The notes beneath the pieces are model-generated. The model did not search any database. It had not been told where the DNA came from and worked only from the letters and a program-made list of their open reading frames with translations. A DNA stretch of 64,000 nucleotides from an uncultured Atopobiaceae bacterium. GTDB lineage: Bacteria > Actinomycetota > Coriobacteriia > Coriobacteriales > Atopobiaceae. The stretch covers positions 497,398 through 561,397 of the forward strand of contig CAWVDR010000002.1 of assembly GCA_963928085.1 (NCBI GenBank), read 5' to 3'. Positions within the stretch are counted from its first letter, which is position 1. Every line of letters starts with the position of its first letter. Shown here in pieces: positions 4,776 to 56,001 of this stretch. Made by a program: the position numbers and the translations under genes.

Positions 4776-4805
4776 TTGCCACTCGGCGCTGCGGGAGGGT
4801 ATACT
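4776..4805 (+). promoter_or_regulatory. Candidate sigma70-type promoter for tRNA-Gly (TTGCCA-N18-TATACT)
   Basis: The hexamers were read directly. The -10 element ends about 31 nt before the tRNA 5' end. Confidence 0.35.
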
Positions 4806-4836
4806 TTTGTGCGCGCCAGCCCGGCGCCACAAGACT

Positions 4837-4911
4837 GCGGGCATCGCCAAGTGGTAAGGCATCAGCTTCCCAAGCTGACACTCGCGGGTTCGAGTCCCGT
4901 TGCCCGCTCCA
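4837..4911 (+). tRNA. tRNA-Gly (anticodon CCC), CCA encoded
   Basis: Cloverleaf read by eye: acceptor GCGGGCA/TGCCCGC, anticodon loop TTCCCAA, T-loop GGTTCGAGTCC. Confidence 0.9.
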
Positions 4912-5003: not shown

Positions 5004-6269
5004 ATGACCGACGAGGAGTGCCGCGTCGCGACGGAGCGTCTCTCCGACCAGCTCGACCTCTATGCCAACCTCCTCGTGAGGAAGGGCGTGGCCCTGCGCG
5101 CCGGCCAGGAGCTCGTGCTCCAGGCGCCCGTCGAGCGCGCTGACTTTGCGCGCCGCGTGGTGCGTGCCGCATATCGCTGCGGCGCCGGCCACGTGACGGT
5201 GATCTGGGCAGACGACGAGGTCAGCCGACTCACCTACGAGAACTGTCCGCTGGAGTTCTTCGAGCACACGCCCACCTGGCAGGTCGAGCAGCTCAACTCG
5301 CTCGCCGAGGCGGGTGCGGCGTTTCTGTTCCTCGAGGGTCAGGACCCCACGATCCTGCGCGGTATCGACCCCGCCAAGCCTGCGGCGGCATCGCGTGCTC
5401 GCAACACCGAGTGCCGATCCTTCCGCGACGGCATGGACTTTGGCCGCAACGCATGGTGCATCGCCGGCGTGCCCGTCGAGGCGTGGGCCCGCGAGGTATT
5501 CCCCGAGCTCTCGCCCGCCGAGGCACTCTACCGACTCTGGGTGCTCATCCTCGAGGTCTCGCGCGCCGACGGCGAGGATCCCGAGAGCGCTTGGGAGACG
5601 CACAACGCCTCCTTCGAGAAGACCAAGCGATTCCTGAACGACCGTCGCTTCGACTCCCTGCGCTACGAGGCCGCGAACGGCACCGACCTCACGATCGGCC
5701 TGCCGGACGGACACATCTGGGACGGCGGCGCCGGTCGTACCCAGGAGGGGGTCACGTTTTTCCCCAACATCCCCACCGAGGAGGTCTTCACCTCCCCTGA
5801 CCGTCTGCGCGCCGAGGGTGTGGTGCACTCCGCCCTCCCGCTCGTCCACGCCGGTCAGGTCGTTCGTGACTTCTGGCTGCGCTTCGAGGACGGTCGCGTT
5901 GTGGACTTCGGGGCCGAGCAGGGCTACGACGTGCTCCGCCACATCCTCGAGACGGACGAGGGGGCGCGCCGTCTCGGCGAGGTCGCGCTCGTGTCCAAGA
6001 ACACGCCGATTCGACAGAGCGACACCCTGTTCTACGACACGCTGTATGACGAGAACGCGAGCTGCCACCTCGCCCTCGGCATGGGCTTCCCCGAGTGCAT
6101 CGCCGACGGGGTGAGCATGAGCAAGGAGGAGCTGACCGCGCGCGGCGTCAACCAGAGCAGCGCCCACGTGGACTTCATGGTCGGCACGGACGACCTGACG
6201 ATCACGGGTATCTGCGCGGACGGCTCTGAGGTCCCGGTGTTCGTGAACGGGCAGTGGGCCTGGGAGTAG
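5004..6269 (+). CDS. M29 family aminopeptidase (AmpS/PepS-like)
   Basis: 421 aa, starting at ATG 5004 within ORF 4674..6269; the upstream part of that ORF runs across the tRNA. The family-typical sequence is recognisable from LYANLLVRKGVALRAGQELVLQAP through DENASCHLALGMGFPE. Confidence 0.85.
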   Translation: MTDEECRVATERLSDQLDLYANLLVRKGVALRAGQELVLQAPVERADFARRVVRAAYRCGAGHVTVIWADDEVSRLTYENCPLEFFEHTPTWQVEQLNSLAEAGAAFLFLEGQDPTILRGIDPAKPAAASRARNTECRSFRDGMDFGRNAWCIAGVPVEAWAREVFPELSPAEALYRLWVLILEVSRADGEDPESAWETHNASFEKTKRFLNDRRFDSLRYEAANGTDLTIGLPDGHIWDGGAGRTQEGVTFFPNIPTEEVFTSPDRLRAEGVVHSALPLVHAGQVVRDFWLRFEDGRVVDFGAEQGYDVLRHILETDEGARRLGEVALVSKNTPIRQSDTLFYDTLYDENASCHLALGMGFPECIADGVSMSKEELTARGVNQSSAHVDFMVGTDDLTITGICADGSEVPVFVNGQWAWE

Positions 6270-8056: not shown

Positions 8057-8084
8057 GGCACGGCGCCAGCACGTTTCACGAGAA

Positions 8085-8120
8085 ACGGCCGGCCGGGAGG
8101 CGCTCCCGGCCGGCCGTCTT
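8085..8120 (+). other. 15-bp GC hairpin between argG and argH
   Basis: ACGGCCGGCCGGGAG-GCG-CTCCCGGCCGGCCGT with only a weak T tract, so it is either an intercistronic stem-loop or a weak terminator. Confidence 0.5.
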
Positions 8121-8159
8121 GGTAAGCTAGTCACCAAGCAATCCGAGGAAGGAGCCACG

Positions 8160-14803: not shown

Positions 14804-14887
14804 GTGGCCCGCCGAGAGGTCACCTCCCCGCTCAGACAGCTTGCTGGCGCAAGAACTCGCGGATGAGATGACCTCTCGGCGGGCCAC
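14804..14887. repeat. ~84-bp TIR-bounded element, copy A
   Basis: 19-bp termini GTGGCCCGCCGAGAGGTCA / TGACCTCTCGGCGGGCCAC around a 46-nt core. Confidence 0.6.
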
Positions 14888-14904: not shown

Positions 14905-14989
14905 GAGGTCGTCCGGAGGTTATGCTCATCCGCGAGTTCTTCGCGCAGCGAAGCTGTCTGAGCGGGGAGTATAACCTCCGGACGACCTC
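14905..14989. repeat. ~85-bp TIR-bounded element, copy B (inverted relative to copy A)
   Basis: 19-bp termini GAGGTCGTCCGGAGGTTAT / ATAACCTCCGGACGACCTC. The core is the reverse complement of the copy A core at about 85 percent identity. Confidence 0.6.
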
Positions 14990-26587: not shown

Positions 26588-26596
26588 TGATTGCTT

Positions 26597-26625
26597 GGGG
26601 CCTCGGCTTTGCCGGGGCCCTTTTT
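26597..26625 (+). terminator. Intrinsic terminator after tRNA-Leu
   Basis: GGGGCCTCGGC-TTT-GCCGGGGCCC followed by TTTTT. Confidence 0.75.
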
Positions 26626-26651
26626 CGTGCGCGCGTGGCCCACGGCCCGCG

Positions 26652-26762
26652 GTCCTTCTCGCCGCCCCGCCCTCCTACGATTAGTGTACATAATCCGGTT
26701 TCAAATCATATATCCGCAGGATTTGTCCTTAATACCAGCCGGAATATGTACACTAATCGACC
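26652..26762. repeat. Left ~110-bp inverted-repeat arm with an internal 21-bp hairpin
   Basis: Reverse complement of 27936-28046. The internal inverted repeat is CGATTAGTGTACATAATCCGG / CCGGAATATGTACACTAATCG. Confidence 0.85.
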
Positions 26763-26775
26763 GGACGTCACCTCG

Positions 26776-27897
26776 TCACGTGAAGTACCACGGCCGCTCG
26801 GCCGCAAGCTCGCGTGCGAAGCGCACCCCCTCGTCCCAGGGGAGCAGGGACCAGATGAGTCTCTGTCGATGTTCCCGTTGCGCGGGGGTTATCGCCGCAT
26901 GTGCGTTTGCGAGCGCCTGTCCTCCGTCCAGCTCGCCGATTGTCATGGCGGCCTGGAGCATGACCGAGTCGAGGCCGCCGGGGGCGAAGAGGTCGGCCGA
27001 GGTTACGGGCAGGACGACGCGCCCCATGGCGGCGAGTTCTCGGTTGCGTTTGATGTCGTCGTGGTGCTTCCTGCGCACGGCGGCTATCTGTGCCTCCGCG
27101 TCTCCGGTTGTCGCGGCGCGGGCGATGGACTCGAGGTCAAGGTGCAGATGGCTGTCGTAGTTGAACCCCACGTGGGTGCCAACGACCTCGATGTCGGGCA
27201 CGCGCGAGCCCCTGCCCCCGAGCGCCACGAGCTCCGGCGTGGCGCCGTGACGCACGTTGAGCACGACCTCGCCGAGCTCGTATCCGGAATCTGCGACGGG
27301 AAGGCGAATCATGAGCGCAACGATCGCCTCCATGGGAGACCAGGCGTTATCGGCGACGCGTCGCAGTGCCAGGCGCGCGAGCATCGCCTGCGGCCGGTCG
27401 CGAAACGCCGCGAGGTAGGATCGTATCTGCTCGACGCTGGTTACGGGTGGCACGCCGTAGACGACCTCACCGCGCCGCGGGTCGGAGGGATCGCGCGCGT
27501 ACGTCCCGCACAGCTCGTAGCCCACGAGCGCCAGCGACTCCTGGCTCATCGTCCCTGCAAGCTCATAGAAAAGCAGCTCAGGACAGGGAATGGAGAGCCC
27601 GTCGCCAAGGCTTACGAACGAGCGGCGCGGTACGCTCGTCGAGCGGACGGTGCACGAGAAGATGGCACCCCTGAGGCGCTTCTCGGCGGATGGGACCACG
27701 ACCTCGATGGGCGCGTCCGTGCTGGGGGCGCCCGAGAGGCCCAGGCGTCGGGCGGGAATCACGCGTGCGGTCCAGCGTTGCTGGGGGCTGGGGTCGGGCT
27801 CCTGAAGGTCATGCCGTTCGGCGGGGAGCATGCGACCCTCACGCCGAAAAACGCGCAGGGCCCGCAGGGCGCTCAGGTTGTCGACGGTCAGCTGCAC
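26776..27897 (-). CDS. Hypothetical protein with a DUF559/Vsr-like (PD-(D/E)XK) nuclease-like C-terminal region
   Basis: GC3-rich ORF. The track gives 26776..27951 with a TTG start inside the repeat arm; I prefer GTG 27897 after GAGGAGG. The C-terminal motifs RVPDIEVVGTHVGFNYDSHLH and DDIKRNRELAAMGRVVLPVTSADL resemble actinobacterial DUF559 proteins. Confidence 0.6.
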   Translation of the reverse strand: MQLTVDNLSALRALRVFRREGRMLPAERHDLQEPDPSPQQRWTARVIPARRLGLSGAPSTDAPIEVVVPSAEKRLRGAIFSCTVRSTSVPRRSFVSLGDGLSIPCPELLFYELAGTMSQESLALVGYELCGTYARDPSDPRRGEVVYGVPPVTSVEQIRSYLAAFRDRPQAMLARLALRRVADNAWSPMEAIVALMIRLPVADSGYELGEVVLNVRHGATPELVALGGRGSRVPDIEVVGTHVGFNYDSHLHLDLESIARAATTGDAEAQIAAVRRKHHDDIKRNRELAAMGRVVLPVTSADLFAPGGLDSVMLQAAMTIGELDGGQALANAHAAITPAQREHRQRLIWSLLPWDEGVRFARELAAERPWYFT

Positions 27898-27935
27898 GCG
27901 TCCTCCTCGGGCCGGCGGCTGATGTGGTGGTGTTG

Positions 27936-28046
27936 ACGAATTAGTGTACAAATTCCGGGTGGTATCAAAACAAAATCCTGCGGATATGTGATTTGAAACC
28001 GGATTATGTACACTAATCGTAGGAGGGGGGCAGGGCCGAGAAGGGC
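27936..28046. repeat. Right ~110-bp inverted-repeat arm
   Basis: Reverse complement of 26652-26762 at about 90 percent identity, with an identical 38-nt core. Confidence 0.85.
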
Positions 28047-28072
28047 GCCCGGCCGAGAAGAACGTCGGGCCG

Positions 28073-28261
28073 CTACTCGTCCTCGTCGCCGAAGAGGCTC
28101 CAGTCGTCCTCGGACTTCTCGTGGTTGAAGTAGCGCTGCTTGGTCTTGCGCTCCATGACGAGGGCGATGATGAGGCAGATCACGATTCCACCCGCAATGA
28201 GGCAGAGAACCCCCATCTTGTCGTTGAAGAGCCACGTGACGAAATCCGCGATTGCCTGCAT
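28073..28261 (-). CDS. Small single-pass membrane protein (62 aa)
   Basis: [39 protein letters not shown] followed by an acidic tail. ATG at 28261 within ORF 28073..28408. Confidence 0.5.
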
Positions 28262-28361
28262 GCTGCCTCCCTGGGCGCCGTTTTCGATGCGCACAAGTAT
28301 ATACTTGGAGCGCCGCCGGGCACGTGCCCGCGGACAGGACAGCCAGAAGCGAGGAGTGAAC

Positions 28362-29645
28362 ATGCTCGACATCAAGTTCGTTCGCGAGAATCCCGACGTC
28401 GTGGACAAGGCGTGCGAGTCCCGTCAGAACGCGCACTGGGACCGCGAGAAGTTCTTCGAGCTTGACGAGGAGCGTCGCTCCGTCATCGTGGAGGTCGAGC
28501 GGCTCCAGGCGGAGCGCAACGCCGTCTCCAAGGAGATCGGCCAGCTCATGCGCGAGGGCAAGCGGGACGAGGCCGAGGCCGCCAAGGCGCGCGTCGCCGC
28601 CAACAAGGAGCGCATCGCCGAGCTCGACGACAAGCGCGACGAGGTCGAGCAGGAGCTCTTCGATCTGGTTGCCGCCATCCCCAACATCCCGCACGAGAGC
28701 GTCCCGTACGGCAAGGACGACTCCGACAACCCCGAGGTCCGCCGCTGGGGCACCCCGCGCGAGTTTGACTTCGAGGCAAAGGCGCACTGGGACCTTGGCC
28801 CGGACCTGGGAATCATCGACTTCGACCGCGGCGTCAAGATCGCCGGCGCGCGCTTCTACGCGCTCGGTGGCCTGGGCTCCCGCATGGAGCGCGCCCTCAT
28901 CAGCTTCATGATTGACATGCACGTCAAGGCCGGCTTCAAGGAGTGGTGGCTGCCCGTCATCACCAACCGCGAGACGCTCTTTGGCACGGGCCAGCTCCCC
29001 AAGTTCGAGGACGACCTCTACCACGTGAACCCGGACCTGTACCTCATCCCCACGGCCGAGGTCATGCTTACCAACCTGCACCGCGACGAGGTCCTGGACG
29101 CCTCCCAGCTGCCGCTGTGGTATACCGCCTTCACGCCGTGCTTCCGCGAGGAGGCGGGCTCGGCCGGCCGCGACACGCGCGGCATCATCCGCGTCCACCA
29201 GTTCGACAAGGTCGAGATGGTCAAGTTTGCCAAGCCCGAGGACTCGATGAACCAGCTCGAGAGCATGGTCGCCGAGGCCGAGGCGGTGCTGCAGGCCCTT
29301 GGCCTGCCCTATCACGTGGTCACGCTGTGCACCGGCGACATCGGCTTCTCTGCCACCAAGTGCTACGACCTCGAGGTGTGGCTGCCGAGCTACAACGCCT
29401 ACAAGGAGATCTCCTCCTGCTCCAACTGCTGGGACTTCCAGGCTCGTCGCGCCAACATCCGCTATCGCGACCCCGCGGAGTTCAAGGGGACGCGCCTTGT
29501 GCATACGCTCAACGGCTCCGGCCTTGCCGTGGGTCGCACGATGGCGGCCATCCTGGAGAACTACCAGAACGCAGACGGCAGCGTGACCGTGCCCGAGGCG
29601 CTGCGCCCCTATATGGGCGGCGTGGAGGTCATTCGCCCGGAGTAG
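28362..29645 (+). CDS. serS: Seryl-tRNA synthetase
   Basis: Starts [12 protein letters not shown] after GAGGAG. 427 aa with class II motifs (RVHQFDKVE and GSGLAVGRT). Confidence 0.95.
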
Positions 29646-33873: not shown

Positions 33874-34031
33874 CTTGGAATTGCGGGGGTTGTCCGACCA
33901 CACCGTCCTTCTCGCCAGCAAAAGCGCGCTTTTGTGGGCGTCGTCAGGACAAGGGCTGCGAATTTAGGAAAGCCGTGCGACAAGGGCGGCAATTCGTAGA
34001 ATGCCCGTGACAACCTCGCCAATTCCAAGAA
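33874..34031. repeat. Modular 30-bp-unit repeat array, locus B
   Basis: One reverse unit (CTTGGAATTGCGGGGGTTGTCC), the central palindrome CAAAAGCGCGCTTTTG (33919-33934), and three forward units starting at 33948, 33979 and 34009. Confidence 0.7.
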
Positions 34032-39291: not shown

Positions 39292-39302
39292 GTGTTGCGA
39301 GC

Positions 39303-39547
39303 GCGTGCCCTTCTCGCCGGGCAATCTAAGAAATGCCGCCTGTGTAAGGGGTCGTTCTAGAAAACGTAAGGGTTGTCAGTACTCACCGGCATTCATGCCG
39401 GCAAAACGAGGTTTTTGTATTCACGATGAAAGCAACGTCCGGCATTCTTGGAGTTTGTTGTGGCGAGGGCGGCAATTCATAGACGAGCTACCGGCAAGGG
39501 CGGCGATTCTAAGAACGAGTTCTGCGGCCGAGAAGAACGTACGCTAG
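39303..39547. repeat. Modular 30-bp-unit repeat array, locus C (8 phased units, all in one orientation)
   Basis: TTCTAGAA-like cores at 39326, 39357, 39447, 39477 and 39509, and a CGAGAAGAAC unit at 39529. The middle units are degenerate and contain small hairpins. Confidence 0.7.
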
Positions 39548-41694
39548 TGACCCGTGGCGATGCGCATGGCCACGTCGTGCGCCGCGGTCTCCAGCGCGTC
39601 ATCGAGCGGCGCGAGCTCGACGAGCTCGCCGCGGCGCGCCAGCGCCCGGGCGATCAGCCAGTCGGTGACGCCGGGGTTCTTGGGCAGGATCGGCCCGTGG
39701 AGGTACGTGCCCACCACGCCATCGTGCAGCACTCCCTCGCCGCCGTCCTCGCCGTTGTTGCCGGTGCCGGCGACGAGCGCGCGCCCGAAGGGCTTCTCGC
39801 CCGCGCCCAGCATGGTGCGGCCCGCGTGGTTCTCAAACCCCACGATCGGCGCGTCGCACACGGGCGACTCGATCGCCACGTTCCCAATGAGCCGCGTGGA
39901 GCCGGCGACGGTCTCCAGGTCCAGGATGTGCAGACCCTCGACCTTCTCCGCCCCCATCATGTAGGAGTGGCCGAGCAGCTGGTAGCCACCGCAGATGGCG
40001 AGAAGAACGCCGCCGTCGGCAACGTAGGCGGCGAGCGTCTCCCGTTGTCCCTGCAGCTCGCGACAAACCGCAAGCTGGTCACGGTCCGCGCCGCCGCCAA
40101 GCAGCACCACGTCCGCGTCGGAGAGGTCGAGCTCCTGTCCCATGAGGACCTGGTCGACCCGGCAGGGAATGCCGCGCCACGCGCAGCGCTTGGAGAGCGA
40201 CGCGATGTTGCCGCCGTCCCCGTAGAGGTTGAGCGCGTCGGGATAGAGGTGGACGATGCGCAGCGGCCGGTCGAGCGCGACGCTCGCGGCATCCGCGCGC
40301 GCGGCCGATGAGGTCGTGGGACGCGTCTGCGCCGCGGGAGCCGCTCCCGTCTTGGAGAGGCGCTCGAGCTCGGCGACGACGGGCGGGAAGGCCGTGTAGT
40401 TGGCGATCGCATGGAGCTTCTCGCCCGCGCCCACAAAGCGCAGCGCGTCCTCGACGCTTTCCACGAGCACGATCTCTGCACCAAGTTCAGCGTACTTCAC
40501 GCGCACGGCCATATCCTCGCGCCGCGTGCCACCAACGTAAACGAGCCGCAGGTCAGAGAGGTCGCGCAGGCGCTCGAGGTCAATGTCCCAGATCCAGGAG
40601 ACGTCATGGCCGTCGGCGTCGTTGTCGTTCAGGAAGATGGCGAGGTAGCGGCCGTCCTCGGCGCGCACCTGCTGGATCATGCGGTTGAAGCCGGTGGGGT
40701 TCTTCGCGAGGTTGGACGTGACCTCGCGCCCATCGCCGAGCGAGAACACCTTGCCACGCCCGCTCGCGGGCTCGTAGGCGTCGAGCACCTCCTGGAAGCG
40801 CGCTGCGTCGCCGCCTGCCACAAGGCACCCCGCCAGCGCAGCCATCACGTTGTAGACCATGTAGAGCCCGCTGTAGCGCGTCCGGACATGATGCCGCACC
40901 ACCTTGGCGCTGCGCCGGTCCTCAACGTCAAACTCAAACCCGCCGCAGGTCAGCGTAACGTTTACGGCAGCAAACGCGAGCTCGGGGCGTTCCCAGCCGC
41001 ACTCGGGGCACCGGTATGCGCCCAGCTGTCCGTAATGCACGTACTCGTAGTCCAGCGGCGCGTTGCAGCGCGCGCAGAAGCGGCTGTCGGAGATGCGGTC
41101 TGCCTCCAGGTCCGTGGGCTCGTCGATGCCAAAGGGCAGCCCGACGTTGTCCACGCGATCGGCGATGGCGGCGCAGAGGGGGTCGTCGGCGTTGAACACA
41201 AGCGCCGTCTTGGGAGAGCGGCGCAGCGCCTCGGCGATCACGTCCTGTGTGTGGTCGATCTCTCCGTAGCGGTCTAGCTGGTCGCGGAACAGGTTGAGCA
41301 GAACGAGGGCGTCCGGCCTCATCTTGGGCAGCACGCGAACGGTGTAGAGCTCGTCGCACTCAAAGCAGCCCGCACGCCCGGGGTTCTTCTCGCCCGCCAG
41401 CACCAGCGCGGCGGCGATGCCGGACTCCATGTTGTTGCCGGCACGGTTGCACACGACGTCGTGTCCGTCGCCGGCGAGCGCGTCGGCAAGAAGACCGGTG
41501 GTGGTCGTCTTTCCGTTGGTGCCCGTGACCACAAGCTTGGGGGAGAGCGGCGCAGAGAGCTCCCCGACGACGTTGGGATCCACGCGCAGGGCTACGGTAC
41601 CCGGAATGTTGCCCCCGCCGCGATGGAGGAGCCGGGTGGTGCCCCAGTGTGCCGCGTCGGCGGCGAGGCGGGCGAGGGTCACGCGCAGCTTCAT
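39544..41694 (-). CDS. Fused lipid II isoglutaminyl synthase subunits MurT (Mur-ligase-like) and GatD (glutamine amidotransferase)
   Basis: A single 716-aa frame. The N-terminal part is MurT-like (VTGTNGKTTTTGL, Cys-rich ribbon CARCNAPL ... CPECG, DUF1727 region). The C-terminal part is GatD-like (YGDGGNI ... LAICGGYQLLG ... YLHGP). Confidence 0.8.
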   Translation of the reverse strand: MKLRVTLARLAADAAHWGTTRLLHRGGGNIPGTVALRVDPNVVGELSAPLSPKLVVTGTNGKTTTTGLLADALAGDGHDVVCNRAGNNMESGIAAALVLAGEKNPGRAGCFECDELYTVRVLPKMRPDALVLLNLFRDQLDRYGEIDHTQDVIAEALRRSPKTALVFNADDPLCAAIADRVDNVGLPFGIDEPTDLEADRISDSRFCARCNAPLDYEYVHYGQLGAYRCPECGWERPELAFAAVNVTLTCGGFEFDVEDRRSAKVVRHHVRTRYSGLYMVYNVMAALAGCLVAGGDAARFQEVLDAYEPASGRGKVFSLGDGREVTSNLAKNPTGFNRMIQQVRAEDGRYLAIFLNDNDADGHDVSWIWDIDLERLRDLSDLRLVYVGGTRREDMAVRVKYAELGAEIVLVESVEDALRFVGAGEKLHAIANYTAFPPVVAELERLSKTGAAPAAQTRPTTSSAARADAASVALDRPLRIVHLYPDALNLYGDGGNIASLSKRCAWRGIPCRVDQVLMGQELDLSDADVVLLGGGADRDQLAVCRELQGQRETLAAYVADGGVLLAICGGYQLLGHSYMMGAEKVEGLHILDLETVAGSTRLIGNVAIESPVCDAPIVGFENHAGRTMLGAGEKPFGRALVAGTGNNGEDGGEGVLHDGVVGTYLHGPILPKNPGVTDWLIARALARRGELVELAPLDDALETAAHDVAMRIATGH

Positions 41695-46489: not shown

Positions 46490-46682
46490 CTTCCGGTAAT
46501 CGCCGTCCTTGTCTCGAGGGCGCCTAAGAAACGTCGGCCTTGTCGGCACGCCGTCTAAGAATCGCCGTACTTGTCCCGAGGATGTCCGCAAAAGCATGGT
46601 TTTGCGGGCGAGAAACCCGGTGCGGTCGGACAACCCCGCGAGTTCCTAGACGACCGCTGGACAAGGGCGGCAGATTCTAGAC
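46490..46682. repeat. Modular 30-bp-unit repeat array, locus D (mirror arrangement)
   Basis: Three reverse units ending CCTTGTC at 46513, 46544 and 46575; the central hairpin CCGCAAAAGCATGGTTTTGCGG (46586-46607); and two forward units at 46628-46651 and 46659-46682. Confidence 0.75.
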
Positions 46683-50093: not shown

Positions 50094-50154
50094 TGAAAAG
50101 GGACAGTCCCTTTTCATCATTCGGGCCGTCGGGTTTCTCGCCCGGCGGCCCTTT
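50091..50154 (+). terminator. Family palindrome (copy 3) plus terminator hairpin; left copy of the 59-nt direct repeat
   Basis: TGATGAAAAGGGAC-A-GTCCCTTTTCATCA starts with the pgi stop codon. It is followed by GGGCCGTCGGG-TTTCTCG-CCCGGCGGCCC and TTTTT. Confidence 0.8.
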
Positions 50155-50276
50155 TTGTTTGATGGCGGTGCTGCGGGTTCACCTCACCTCACCGATTCGC
50201 ACGCTCCGCCAGCGGCGGTGGCTGCGCGGGCGTTCGTAGAATGTACTTGCCGGTTTATTCGACAGAGGGGGTTGCT

Positions 50277-52217: not shown

Positions 52218-52279
52218 TTCAAAAGGGACAGTCCCTTTTCATCATTCGGGCCGTCGGGTTTCTCGCCCGGCGGCCCTTT
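52215..52279 (+). terminator. Family palindrome (copy 4) plus terminator hairpin; right copy of the 59-nt direct repeat
   Basis: 52221-52279 is identical to 50096-50154 (59 of 59 nt). Confidence 0.8.
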
Positions 52280-52302
52280 GCTGTATCGAGAGGCTGACGA
52301 AT

Positions 52303-55695: not shown

Positions 55696-56001
55696 AGGGC
55701 AGCTTCCCCTCTATAGATAAAGCCCTTATGCCACAATTCGCTGGCTTTTGTGTAAGGCCGGGTTCCGGCGCGCGCCGCAAGGCGCTCCCGTGGCCGTCCG
55801 GCACGGTTTTGGGCAACAACTTTGATGTGCTTGCCAGAAGGGAAGGGGTTTTGTGGCGGCGCCGGCCCGACGTTCTTCTCGCCAGCCGTAAAGATGCAGG
55901 TAACAAGCGTGTGCCAAGCGAGAAGAACGTGCGCTCGCGGCGACGCCATAAAACCTTTGCCCCAAAACCGGAGAGAGGCGTCGGCGCGACGCCGCGGGCT
56001 C

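What the first reader, a model, noticed from the sequence alone, without database searches (positions are those of the whole stretch)
26652..28046. One nuclease-like ORF exactly enclosed by ~110-bp inverted repeats that are themselves hairpins, between tRNA-Leu and serS
Arms 26652-26762 and 27936-28046 are reverse complements at roughly 90 percent identity. A 38-nt core, CCTCCTACGATTAGTGTACATAATCCGGTTTCAAATCA, is identical. The mirror is visible in the ORF track as near-identical peptides: LLRLVYIIRFQIIYPQDLSLIPAGICTLI in ORF 26591..27160 and LLRLVYIIRFQITYPQDFVLIPPGICTLI in ORF 27888..29504. Each arm carries its own 21-bp inverted repeat (CGATTAGTGTACATAATCCGG / CCGGAATATGTACACTAATCG). These flank an AT-richer ~40-nt loop with a small ATCCGCAGGAT palindrome, so each arm can fold on its own in ssDNA or RNA. 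The arms enclose a single GC3-rich ORF (26776..27897, with GAGGAGG before the GTG). Its C-terminus (RVPDIEVVGTHVGFNYDSHLH ... DDIKRNRELAAMGRVVLPVTSADL) looks like the DUF559/Vsr-type PD-(D/E)XK fold common in actinobacterial orphan proteins. However, N replaces the usual E of the (V/I)EYDG motif. There is no transposase, integrase or invertase nearby, and the surrounding genes are housekeeping. The unit begins 65 nt after tRNA-Leu(CAG). Four readings are possible. It could be a non-canonical TIR-bounded selfish gene (homing-type or a passenger of palindromic repeats). It could be a segment invertible by recombination between the arms. It could be a transcript whose 5' and 3' ends pair into ~110 bp of dsRNA. 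Or it could be two copies of an intergenic palindromic repeat flanking the gene by chance.
Basis: partly seen in the sequence, partly recalled or inferred. Interest (0 to 1): 0.75.

Follow-up and report, generated by a model that had tools for sequence, protein, structure and literature searches.

The report
Palindrome-bracketed nuclease-like gene cassette
A gene for a Vsr/DUF559-like nuclease-type protein is bracketed by two inverted copies of its own covarying DNA palindrome, and this unit recurs as a gained, lost and swapped cassette at a few fixed sites in Atopobiaceae genomes, which looks like an undescribed kind of selfish nuclease element.

Summary
The arms 26652-26762 and 27936-28046 are 87% identical as reverse complements, with an exact 38-nt core. 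Each arm is itself a 21-bp-stem palindrome. They enclose one 373-aa ORF.

The window is one example of a family-wide design. Homologues (355 proteins, all Atopobiaceae/Coriobacteriia) occur as 2-3 diverged paralogues per genome at about 10 conserved intergenic sites. Nearly every one is flanked by two inverted copies of a roughly 73-nt palindrome. The stems covary completely between cassettes, and the loop carries a conserved motif.

The unit behaves as a block:
- Site A is empty in Olsenella sp. An270.
- A second site is empty in this very window.
- At site A the cassette is far more diverged (dS 0.80) than its flanks (dS 0.18-0.31).
- The two arms exchange sequence with each other.
- Rare solo palindromes exist.

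The C-terminal domain is a remote Vsr/DUF559-type PD-(D/E)XK fold, supported by several weak, concordant hits. An invariant Asn replaces the canonical Glu.

Chance is excluded. RNA-level function and programmed inversion are poorly supported.

Best reading: a slow-moving selfish cassette whose nuclease-like protein acts on its own palindromic ends. It works like REP/RAYT or a homing gene but uses a different enzyme class. Whether it cleaves DNA, and by what mechanism, is untested.

The parts
26627..28050 (.). Block present here but absent from the empty tRNA-Leu/DUF6724 junction of Olsenella sp. An270: outer motif, palindrome, gene, palindrome, outer motif, plus about 25 nt of unique sequence next to the tRNA terminator.
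   Evidence: Homology between the An270 flank (L112) and the window stops at window 28051. The empty junction reads stop + CGGCGCCGCCCGTCCTTCTCGGCC + tRNA-Leu terminator. The left boundary is inferred by eye.
26652..26677 (.). Outer part of the inverted repeat on the tRNA side. It contains one CCTTCTCGCC unit (26654-26663).
26678..26759 (.). Palindromic arm on the 3' side of the gene: stems 26678-26698 / 26739-26759, 40-nt AT-rich loop.
26710..26721 (+). Conserved apical loop motif ATATCCGCAGGA. The family consensus is ATATCCGCAGTTGG / CCCAGTTGGC. It lies at the centre of the palindrome.
26776..27897 (-). 373-aa ORF (stop codon 26776-26778), GTG start. The family is under purifying selection (dN/dS about 0.3-0.45).
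26938..27300 (-). Residues about 200-320: Vsr/DUF559-like PD-(D/E)XK-type domain. Invariant D235, N246, D248, H252 (VPDIE...FNYDS..H), followed by DDxxRNRELAxxG.
27301..27897 (-). Residues 1-199: N-terminal domain. It is confidently modelled with an alignment (pLDDT mostly 85-97) but has no structural or sequence neighbour. I infer it is the specificity or DNA-binding part.
   Evidence: inference for the function
27902..27908 (-). Ribosome-binding site GAGGAGG.
27938..28019 (.). Palindromic arm on the 5' side of the gene: stems 27940-27958 / 27999-28017. It ends 42 nt before the start codon.
28020..28050 (.). Outer part of the inverted repeat on the DUF6724 side. It contains one CCTTCTCGGC unit (28035-28044, minus strand).
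28054..28063 (-). GTTCTTCTCG unit just after the DUF6724 stop codon. It belongs to the flank, because it is also present at the empty site. It is a possible landmark or target.

Best explanation
The feature is one copy of a family of roughly 1.4-kb chromosomal cassettes confined to Atopobiaceae.

Each cassette has two components:
- One gene for a two-domain protein. It has an unmatched N-terminal domain and a C-terminal Vsr/DUF559-type PD-(D/E)XK nuclease-like domain with an invariant Asn where relatives have Glu.
- Two inverted copies of a roughly 73-95-bp DNA palindrome that is specific to that cassette.

Shown: gene and arms are inherited, diversify, are gained, lost and replaced together as one block at a small set of intergenic slots. 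The palindromy is maintained at the DNA level. The two arms recombine with each other.

Inferred: the protein recognises its own arms, through the conserved stem-base box TTAAC-RYRYR-CA and the apical motif, either as duplex sites or as an extruded cruciform. It nicks or cuts there. Host recombination and repair then copies the cassette into an allelic or empty slot, exchanges it, homogenises the arms, or deletes it. Because each arm is a palindrome, the two arms are also direct repeats over their stems, so a deletion between them would leave a single solo palindrome. In this sense the cassette works like a selfish, slow-moving, site-restricted nuclease element. It resembles a REP/RAYT pair or a free-standing homing endonuclease gene, with a different enzyme class and its own hairpin ends.
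For: 1. Recurrence. In 63 homologous loci from GTDB genomes, most members with at least 46% identity are flanked by 70-150-bp inverted repeats that score far above shuffles (SW 40-190 against about 21). A hairpin scan finds the palindrome upstream and downstream of almost every Atopobiaceae member.

2. Covarying stems. On 24 arms from different cassettes the 12-pair basal helix is 97.9% paired, and 10 of 12 pairs change on both sides. There are 108 doubly changed cells against 34.9 in shuffles (0/500), and slid controls are 27-48% paired. The span from TAAC to GTTA is constant at 73-74 nt in many clades.

3. Specific association. 69 of 97 long-loop hairpins in 654 kb lie next to family genes.

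4. Gain or loss as a block. Site A is empty in Olsenella sp. An270 and in L116/L117. The argG site is empty in this window but filled in L034, whose argG is 98% identical. The extra block ends at the outer ends of the inverted repeat.

5. Decoupled history. Window against L017: flanking genes have dS 0.18-0.31 and 89-99% aa identity, whereas the cassette has dS 0.80 and 65% aa identity. Site-A cassettes are roughly equidistant whatever the flank divergence. Sites A and B are polyphyletic in the protein tree.

6. Arm-to-arm recombination. Loop variants alpha and beta appear in every combination, including a reciprocal swap, among cassettes that are 96-100% identical. Loop orientation relative to the gene varies between cassettes.

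7. Nuclease-type domain. Vsr is the best PDB fold hit. The C-domain profile hits I-Bth0305I at E = 0.025 and Vsr at about 0.9. Remote members give DUF559/MTES_1575 and mREase_II hits. The BFVD hit list is dominated by homing, Vsr, DUF559 and restriction endonucleases.

8. Derivatives. Solo palindromes and a truncated gene that keeps both arms (L068) exist.

9. A close evolutionary precedent is described for RAYT genes: syntenic genes flanked by differing REP classes, 2-3 copies per strain (PMC3686654).
Against: - No nuclease activity is shown, and the canonical metal-binding Glu is replaced by an invariant Asn.
- There is no recent movement. The most similar cassettes at different sites are only 62-70% identical, and within-genome paralogues are 50-60% identical.
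- No target-site duplication is visible.
- No copies occur on phages, plasmids or viral contigs.
- Binding of the protein to its arms is pure inference.
- Differential loss plus ordinary homologous replacement through the conserved flanks could produce the same presence/absence pattern and incongruence without any activity of the protein.
- Every fold hit is individually non-significant.
Confidence: 0.45

Rival explanations
1. The gene is an ordinary accessory gene, for example a restriction-like, defence or toxin-type nuclease, sitting in variable intergenic hot spots. The palindromes are its regulatory or insulating DNA: operators for autorepression, bidirectional terminator-like barriers, or AT-rich silencing sites. 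Gain, loss and replacement come from normal recombination through the conserved flanks.
For: Several features are typical of defence-type genes: patchy presence, several diverged paralogues per genome, deep allelic lineages at one site, and purifying selection. Site A is a general hot spot, since a different SLH-domain gene occupies it in Ca. Olsenella avicola. A remote family member hits a methyl-directed restriction enzyme model. The arms lie 16-65 nt from the start codon and just after the stop codon.
Against: This reading does not explain why the downstream arm is an inverted copy of the upstream one, why the two are kept alike, why stems are cassette-specific with a constant 73-nt span, or why loop orientation relative to the gene is free. 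The scan found no sigma-70-like promoter and no U-tract terminator in the arms. Solo palindromes exist away from family genes. No other defence genes are adjacent.
Confidence: 0.2
2. The arms are recombination sites for a host tyrosine recombinase (Xer-like or another), and the cassette is a module moved by the host enzyme. It would be comparable to Acinetobacter pdif modules or integron cassettes, with the nuclease-like gene as mere cargo.
For: The discrete module is bounded by inverted sites and has no recombinase of its own. It shows insertion/deletion polymorphism and solo sites. The stem-base box of about 10-11 bp is conserved. In some clades a third copy of it gives an 11-6-11 layout, for example TAACGCGCACG-GTTTGC-CATGCGCGTTA. 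The stems resemble dif half-sites, but I recall this from memory only. pdif modules bounded by inverted Xer sites are documented (PMC6449649).
Against: The cargo is always the same gene family, whereas pdif modules and integrons carry diverse cargo. Stems differ strongly between cassettes of one genome, for example ATTAGTGTACATAATCCGG, ATTAACACGCACGGTTTG and AATAACACGCAGAATCGAC in one MAG, which one host enzyme would not be expected to tolerate. The AAC/GTT positions that are invariant in attC vary here. In most cassettes the half-sites are about 55 nt apart, not 6-8 nt.
Confidence: 0.12
3. The arms act in the transcript, either as 5' and 3' stem-loops that stabilise or gate the mRNA, or as a long 5'-3' duplex that locks it.
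For: The arms lie immediately outside the coding region on both sides. They give strong predicted hairpins.
Against: Stem mismatches on the sense strand are not enriched for G:T (8) over A:C (15). The loop motif occurs in either orientation relative to the gene. There is no Rfam match. Solo copies are not next to family genes. Because each arm is self-complementary, local folding would pre-empt 5'-3' pairing.
Confidence: 0.07
4. The segment is a programmed invertible switch that flips by recombination between the arms.
For: There are 111-bp inverted repeats. The arms do recombine, as the alpha/beta swap shows. The cassette is inverted relative to its flanks in L036 (site F) and in L055/L057 (site B).
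Against: The orientation is the same in every assembly shown for this lineage and in all ten site-A loci of other species. No site-specific recombinase is present. Inverting a self-contained gene changes nothing obvious. The inverted cases are between distant species, and two of the three are pseudogenes.
Confidence: 0.05
5. Two copies of a dispersed intergenic palindromic repeat flank the gene by chance.
For: Other dispersed hairpin families and an over-represented 10-mer do exist in these genomes.
Against: The stem 19-mer occurs only in the two arms of the window. The same gene-plus-two-arms layout recurs in dozens of homologous loci with different arm sequences. 69 of 97 long-loop hairpins are next to family genes.
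Confidence: 0.01

Closest known systems
REP/RAYT systems (REP-associated tyrosine transposases flanked by REP palindromes)
   Same: A nuclease-type gene is flanked upstream and downstream by inverted copies of its cognate palindrome. There are 2-3 diverged copies per genome at conserved, syntenic sites. Different palindrome classes flank orthologous genes in related strains. Inheritance is mostly vertical, with gain and loss (PMC3686654).
   Different: RAYTs are HUH/Y1 enzymes of the IS200/IS605 type, whereas this protein is a Vsr/DUF559-like PD-(D/E)XK-type protein. REPs are 20-35 nt with a GTAG head and occur in tens to hundreds of dispersed copies. Here the palindrome is about 73 nt with a 40-nt loop and is almost confined to the gene flanks, with only a few solos in 654 kb plus metagenome hits.
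Free-standing homing endonuclease genes, especially the Vsr-like family represented by I-Bth0305I (PDB 3r3p)
   Same: This is the best profile hit of the C-terminal domain (E = 0.025). Both are single selfish-looking nuclease genes in intergenic slots, with presence/absence at the same site among relatives and a history decoupled from the flanks.
   Different: Homing genes are not bracketed by cognate inverted palindromes. The canonical acidic residue is replaced by Asn here. No cleavage of an empty site is shown. I-Bth0305I is intron-encoded in a phage (PMC3239194, abstract).
Acinetobacter pdif (dif) modules
   Same: Discrete gene modules are bounded by inverted short recombination sites with no recombinase of their own, and they are shuffled between locations (PMC6449649, PMC13141974).
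   Different: pdif sites are 28-bp XerC/XerD sites, are conserved across modules, sit on plasmids and flank diverse cargo. Here the sites are 73-nt palindromes that are cassette-specific and chromosomal, and the cargo is always one gene family.
Integron gene cassettes / attC sites
   Same: The site is an imperfect palindrome of about 60-140 bp, defined by structure rather than sequence, with covarying stems and TAAC...GTTA ends reminiscent of R''/R'. A gene plus a palindrome forms the exchangeable unit.
   Different: No IntI is present. The arms are inverted rather than direct. There is a single cargo family. The AAC/GTT positions are not invariant. There are no cassette arrays.
Hairpin-ended replicons with flip/flop termini (parvovirus ITRs, poxvirus telomeres)
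   Same: Two terminal imperfect palindromes are inverted copies of each other, and their asymmetric loops occur in either orientation.
   Different: This is purely a geometric analogy from general knowledge. The cassettes are chromosomal, no linear or excised form has been seen, and recombination between palindromic arms explains the flips equally well.

Membership tests
Vsr/DUF559/MTES_1575 branch of the PD-(D/E)XK nuclease superfamily | Significant sequence or profile match to Pfam DUF559 (PF04480), Vsr (PF03852) or MTES_1575 (PF18741) | tested here: not met
   The window protein and 18 close relatives have no Pfam hit at E<=10. Remote members P0263 and P0268 hit MTES_1575 (5e-4, 2e-3) and DUF559 (0.04, 0.025), all below the gathering score.
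Vsr/DUF559/MTES_1575 branch of the PD-(D/E)XK nuclease superfamily | Vsr-like fold of the core domain | tested here: inconclusive
   The AF2 model has pLDDT 84. The best PDB match is 1vsr (E 0.63, prob 0.85, target TM 0.49, 96 columns). A C-domain profile against PDB gives 3r3p at E 0.025 and Vsr entries at about 0.9. BFVD top hits are mostly homing, DUF559, Vsr and restriction endonucleases, all at E>0.1.
Vsr/DUF559/MTES_1575 branch of the PD-(D/E)XK nuclease superfamily | Catalytic motif PD ... E-x-D-G ... H | tested here: not met
   D235, D248 and H252 are invariant, but the Glu position is an invariant Asn (FNYDS/G) in all hairpin-associated members. Remote relatives keep E.
Insertion sequence / TIR transposon | Terminal inverted repeats bounding the unit | tested here: met
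Insertion sequence / TIR transposon | Transposase of a known class (DDE, HUH, serine, tyrosine, DEDD) | tested here: not met
   No Pfam, NCBIfam or PHROG transposase hit. No recombinase fold appears among the Foldseek hits.
Insertion sequence / TIR transposon | Several near-identical copies per genome and target-site duplications | tested here: not met
   Paralogues within a genome are 50-60% identical, and the best cross-site pair is 62-70% identical. No direct duplication is seen at filled versus empty junctions.
Insertion sequence / TIR transposon | Insertion polymorphism (filled versus empty sites) | tested here: met
   Site A is empty in An270 and in L116/117. Site B is empty in the window.
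REP/RAYT | HUH/Y1 (IS200/IS605-type) enzyme | tested here: not met
   There is no such domain, and the C-terminal domain is Vsr-like.
REP/RAYT | Gene flanked on both sides by inverted cognate palindromes | tested here: met
REP/RAYT | Large dispersed population of the cognate palindrome in the genome | tested here: not met
   The window has no further copy. Only a few solos occur in 654 kb and in a metagenome scan. This is a sample, not whole genomes.
Homing endonuclease gene | Cleavage of the cognate empty site followed by copying of the gene | not testable with these tools
   Empty and filled alleles of the same site exist, but activity needs an experiment.
Integron cassette (attC) | IntI integrase / attI nearby, direct attC orientation, diverse cargo | tested here: not met
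   No integrase within +/-6 kb. The arms are inverted and there is one cargo family.
Programmed invertible segment (Hin-type) | Site-specific recombinase, and both orientations present in a population | tested here: not met
   No recombinase. One orientation in all assemblies shown for this lineage. Read-level data are not available.

The most novel reading that the evidence does not exclude
This would be a new class of prokaryotic mobile element. Its only enzyme would be a PD-(D/E)XK (Vsr-like) nuclease, and its ends would be cognate cruciform-forming palindromes. Resolving or nicking the two extruded arms would release or copy the cassette, possibly through a hairpin-capped intermediate, which would also account for the flip/flop loop orientations. 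A solo palindrome would be left as a footprint and re-used as a landing pad. That mechanism differs from those of DDE, HUH, serine and tyrosine elements.
Probability: 0.2. Interest if true: 0.9.

Novelty: new variant of a known kind. Interest (0 to 1): 0.72.

Why it matters
If the protein does act on its own arms, this is a second, independent invention of the 'nuclease gene guarded by its cognate palindromes' lifestyle, known so far from REP/RAYT, built on a different enzyme fold. It would add a PD-(D/E)XK enzyme to the short list of proteins that mobilise or maintain DNA palindromes.

It would also give a natural set of dozens of protein/palindrome pairs with covarying specificity. Such a set is useful for studying how sequence- or structure-specific DNA recognition evolves, and possibly as programmable hairpin or cruciform nucleases.

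On the practical side, these inverted repeats break short-read assemblies of gut Atopobiaceae. The Logan contigs of 1243 bp end inside the arms. They also mark variable slots that are useful for strain typing.

Tried and rejected
- **Sequence annotation of the window protein.** Pfam, NCBIfam, PADLOC, PHROGs and PDB phmmer gave nothing usable.
- **Rfam on the region.** Only the tRNA matched.
- **Promoter and terminator scan.** No sigma-70-like promoter was found, and the only convincing terminator is that of the tRNA.
- **Structure of the N-terminal domain alone.** AF2 without an alignment gave pLDDT 34, which is unusable, and one job was wasted. No structural neighbour for that domain appeared in PDB or BFVD from the full model.
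- **Mobile-element reservoirs.** Searches of viral contigs, plasmids and phages for relatives found none.
- **Metagenome pattern scan** (TAACACGCA-N50-60-TGCGTGTTA). Of the 36 loci, only 4 (L098, L100, L109, L111) are family-type hairpins in high-GC contigs. The others are unrelated matches.
- **RNA reading.** Rejected because stem mismatches show no G:U bias and loop orientation is free.
- **Serine or tyrosine recombinase in the N-terminal domain.** Rejected: no fold or profile hit.
- **TTAA target-site duplication around each arm.** Rejected: in cassettes whose stem base is not TTAA, for example TTAG...CTAA here, the ends are inverted rather than direct.
- **attC identity.** Rejected.
- **Literature.** Searches found no description of this architecture.
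- **Resemblances to a DnaA box and to dif arms.** These are recalled from memory and were not tested.
Full report
**1. The observation.**
The window holds two arms, 26652-26762 and 27936-28046, that are reverse complements of each other. They match at 97 of 111 positions, and a 38-nt core is exact (26671-26708 against 27989-28026). The repeat finder reports 91 nt at 90%.

Each arm is itself a palindrome: 26678-26698 pairs with 26739-26759 (21 bp, 95%) around a 40-nt AT-rich loop, and 27940-27958 pairs with 27999-28017. The stem 19-mer occurs four times in the window against 0.00 expected, and nowhere else in the 64 kb. As single-stranded DNA the arms fold at -20 to -23 kcal/mol, z about -6.

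The arms enclose one ORF, 26776..27897 on the minus strand: 373 aa, GTG start, GAGGAGG in front. tRNA-Leu(CAG) ends 65 nt before the unit. On the other side come a 62-aa DUF6724 gene and serS. The neighbours within 6 kb are housekeeping genes, with no recombinase.

**2. The protein.**
The protein has no hit in Pfam, NCBIfam, PADLOC, PHROGs or PDB sequences.

It has 355 homologues in the 5.8-billion-protein set, all unnamed or 'hypothetical', from Olsenella, Thermophilibacter and other Atopobiaceae. A profile search finds 3252 representative clusters at E<=0.001.

An AlphaFold model built on 18 homologues is confident (pLDDT 84, pTM 0.85). The evidence on the fold of the C-terminal domain is as follows:
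- The best PDB match is the Vsr endonuclease (E 0.63, probability 0.85, target TM 0.49).
- A profile of the C-terminal domain hits I-Bth0305I, the Vsr-like homing endonuclease 3r3p, at E 0.025, and three Vsr entries at about 0.9.
- Remote family members give sub-threshold MTES_1575 and DUF559 hits and a PADLOC mREase_II hit at 3.7e-5.
- The BFVD hit list is dominated by homing, DUF559, Vsr and restriction endonucleases.

No single hit is significant, but all point the same way. I take the C-terminal domain (about residues 200-320) to be a Vsr/DUF559-type PD-(D/E)XK fold, with roughly 85% confidence.

The motif reads VPDIE...FNYD(S/G)..H. Remote relatives have EY(D/E)S in that position, while every member associated with hairpins has an invariant Asn. 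Whether the protein can catalyse cleavage is therefore open.

The N-terminal 200 residues are modelled confidently but match nothing.

**3. The architecture is a property of the family.**
A scan of one genome per GTDB species returned 63 loci. Several genomes hold 2-3 copies that are only 50-60% identical to each other. Examples are O. uli An820 (L021, L024, L041) and the MAG that carries the 99% copy of this window's protein (L013, L023, L030).

I aligned the upstream flank of each gene to the reverse complement of its downstream flank. Most members with at least 46% identity gave scores of 40-190, against about 21 for shuffles. A hairpin scan then showed that almost every Atopobiaceae member has a palindrome both upstream and downstream.

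The arms have these features:
- The sequences differ between cassettes but share a plan. The stem base is (A)TTAAC-RYRYR-CA, with variants TTAGTGTACA, TAACATACA and TAGCATACA. The distal stem of 8-12 bp is unique to each cassette. An apical motif, ATATCCGCAGTTGG or CCCAGTTGGC, lies at the centre.
- The span from TAAC to GTTA is a nearly constant 73-74 nt.
- On 24 arms from different cassettes the 12 basal pairs are 97.9% paired. Ten of the 12 pairs change on both sides. There are 108 doubly changed cells against 34.9 in shuffles (0 of 500), and slid controls pair at 27-48%.
- Mismatches in stems show no excess of G:T over A:C on the sense strand.
- The loop motif is found in either orientation relative to the gene: upstream-forward/downstream-reverse, the opposite, or both the same.

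These last two points indicate that the palindromy is maintained in DNA, not in the transcript. In 654 kb of sequence around family genes, 69 of 97 long-loop hairpins lie next to a family gene. Chance co-occurrence is excluded.

**4. The unit is gained, lost and replaced as a block.**
The loci fall into about ten conserved chromosomal sites.

- *Empty and otherwise occupied site A.* This window's cassette sits at site A, between DUF6724/serS and tRNA-Leu/kinase. The same site is occupied in ten further genomes. It is empty in Olsenella sp. An270, where the DUF6724 stop codon is followed by only CGGCGCCGCCCGTCCTTCTCGGCC and then the tRNA terminator. It is also empty in L116/L117, and it holds an unrelated SLH-domain gene in Ca. 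O. avicola. Homology between the An270 flank and the window stops at 28051, which is the outer end of the inverted repeat.
- *Empty site B in the window.* Site B lies between argG and the next gene. It is empty in this window (about 8057-8147) but filled in L034, whose argG is 98% identical.
- *Tree against site.* In the protein tree, sites D, E, F, H and I are each monophyletic. Sites A and B are polyphyletic.
- *Cassette against flanks.* Between the window and L017, flanking genes have dS 0.18-0.31 and 89-99% aa identity, whereas the cassette gene has dS 0.80, dN 0.29 and 65% identity. Site-A cassettes are all about 50-68% identical to this one whatever the divergence of the flanks.

The cassette therefore has a history of its own. 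dN/dS of 0.3-0.45 shows that the protein is under selection.

There is no sign of recent jumping. The closest cassettes at different sites are 62-70% identical. No copy lies on a phage, plasmid or viral contig. I see no target-site duplication.

**5. The arms recombine with each other.**
Among cassettes that are 96-100% identical in protein, two variants of the inner loop half (alpha and beta) occur in every combination:
- alpha upstream and beta downstream in the window and L001/3/4;
- beta upstream and alpha downstream in L013;
- alpha/alpha in L005 and L014;
- a mosaic in L002.

This accounts for the concerted evolution of the arms. The gene has nevertheless kept the same orientation relative to its flanks in every assembly shown for this lineage and in all ten site-A loci of other species. 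The cassette is inverted relative to its flanks only in L036, and in the degenerate L055 and L057. Frequent programmed inversion is thus not supported, although reads were not available.

**6. Solo palindromes and derivatives.**
Family-type palindromes without a family gene exist:
- L100/L109 1662-1742 and L109 8781-8856, among housekeeping genes (glyA, rpiB, prmC);
- L111 5509-5582;
- L033 4654-4749.

L068 keeps both arms around a truncated gene. More distant members (L058, L059) have two tandem palindromes downstream only.

Because each arm is a palindrome, the two arms are also direct repeats over their stems. A deletion between them would leave exactly one solo palindrome. This step is inference.

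**7. The outer motif.**
Outside the palindromes at site A there are 1-4 inverted copies of a unit G-N-CCTTCTCG-S-C. In other cassettes the unit lies inside the loop.

The same 10-mer, GTTCTTCTCG, is about 100-fold over-represented in the window (13 hits against 0.13 expected). Seven of the 13 are intergenic, mostly just after stop codons or tRNA ends. One copy is present at the empty site of An270. It may be a landmark or target, a site for a host factor, or unrelated. I could not decide.

**8. Explanation.**
What is shown: gene and arms form one co-inherited, co-diversifying, block-wise gained and lost unit with DNA-level palindromes that recombine.

What I infer: the protein recognises its own arms, nicks or cuts them, and host repair then copies, swaps, homogenises or deletes the cassette. 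I put this at 0.45.

Rival explanations and my estimates:

| Rival | Confidence |
|---|---|
| Accessory (defence-like) gene with regulatory or insulating palindromes | 0.20 |
| Module moved by a host tyrosine recombinase, like pdif modules | 0.12 |
| RNA-level role | 0.07 |
| Programmed inversion | 0.05 |
| Chance | 0.01 |

**9. Comparison with what is known.**
The closest system in behaviour is REP/RAYT. There too a nuclease-type gene is flanked by inverted cognate palindromes, with 2-3 diverged copies per genome at syntenic sites and different palindrome classes at orthologous genes (PMC3686654). This family fails the membership tests, however: the enzyme is not HUH/Y1, and there is no large dispersed palindrome population.

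It shares the nuclease fold and the slot-wise presence/absence with Vsr-like homing endonucleases, but those lack cognate arms. It shares geometry with pdif modules and attC cassettes, but not their recombinase, conserved sites or diverse cargo. My literature searches found no description of it.

I class it as a new variant of a known kind: a selfish nuclease gene with cognate palindromes. There is a 0.2 chance that it is a categorically new type of mobile element.

Noticed in passing
window 6381, 28054, 39230, 39529, 46465, 55872, 55919 (intergenic) and 6904, 34092, 37393, 39999, 41383, 63069: The 10-mer GTTCTTCTCG occurs 13 times against 0.13 expected, and CYTTCTCGSC 21 times against 1.15. 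Seven of the 13 hits are intergenic, typically 5-20 nt after a stop codon or a tRNA 3' end, sometimes in the loop of a GC-rich hairpin. There is no strand bias. The pattern resembles an uptake-sequence or a 3'-end motif. The function is unknown.
   Followed up: partly
window 8057-8147: The argG/next-gene junction is an empty 'site B'. In L034, L041, L047 and L051-53 the same junction holds a hairpin-gene-hairpin cassette of this family.
   Followed up: yes
window 14804-14887 and 14905-14989; L023 1755-1838, L024 1898-1991, L025 3391-3471 and 7928-7998, L026 388-467: A second dispersed hairpin family has variable GC-rich stems and a conserved loop GCTCAGACAGCTTGC...GCAAGAACTCGCGG. It is unrelated in sequence to the cassette arms.
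   Followed up: no
window 33880-33960 (+) and 46560-46650 (-): Two copies of an intergenic element GGGGTTGTCCGACC.CACCG..TTCTCGCC.GCAAAA...CTTTTG.GG...GGACAAG.
   Followed up: no
window 50100-50170 and 52225-52295: Two near-identical terminator-like elements AAAAGGGACAGTCCCTTTTCATCATTCGGGCCGTCGGGTTTCTCGCCCGGCGGCCC.
   Followed up: no
window 55870-55930: An isolated 13-bp-stem hairpin whose stems are the GTTCTTCTCG motif (ACGTTCTTCTCGC...GCGAGAAGAACGT) around a 35-nt loop.
   Followed up: no
L112 3900-4230 (Olsenella sp. An270, between tRNA-Leu and the kinase gene); similar unit near window 39300-39560: Inverted arrays of a roughly 31-bp unit TTCTAGGAATCGCGGCCCTTGTCC (112-nt arms at 73% complementarity).
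   Followed up: no
L114 3774-4985, L121 3287-4483: In Ca. Olsenella avicola the tRNA-Leu/DUF6724 slot holds an unrelated 398-411-aa SLH-domain gene without flanking palindromes. The slot is therefore a general hot spot.
   Followed up: partly
L006-L012 (Logan contigs of 1243-1281 bp): Short-read unitigs carrying the 97%-identical gene end about 30 nt inside each arm. The inverted repeat breaks de Bruijn assemblies. This probably explains why so many family members sit on 1.2-2.5-kb contigs.
   Followed up: partly
L019 versus L022 and L028: L019 carries a site-A cassette that is 93% identical to that of L022, but it lacks the upstream arm and has a different left flank, which equals the right flank of L028. 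This looks like a chromosomal rearrangement with a breakpoint at the cassette.
   Followed up: no
L028 4593-4676 / 6092-6175: Here the upstream arm lies 324 nt from the gene, and a tRNA-Glu (4777-4852) sits between arm and gene, inside the inverted repeat.
   Followed up: no
arms of sites C, D and F (e.g. L024 6139-6166, L021 4905-4932, L035 1742-1774): A third, internal copy of the stem-base box gives a short 11-6-11-like palindrome (TAACGCGCACG-GTTTGC-CATGCGCGTTA) inside the larger one. This resembles a recombinase core site plus an accessory site.
   Followed up: no
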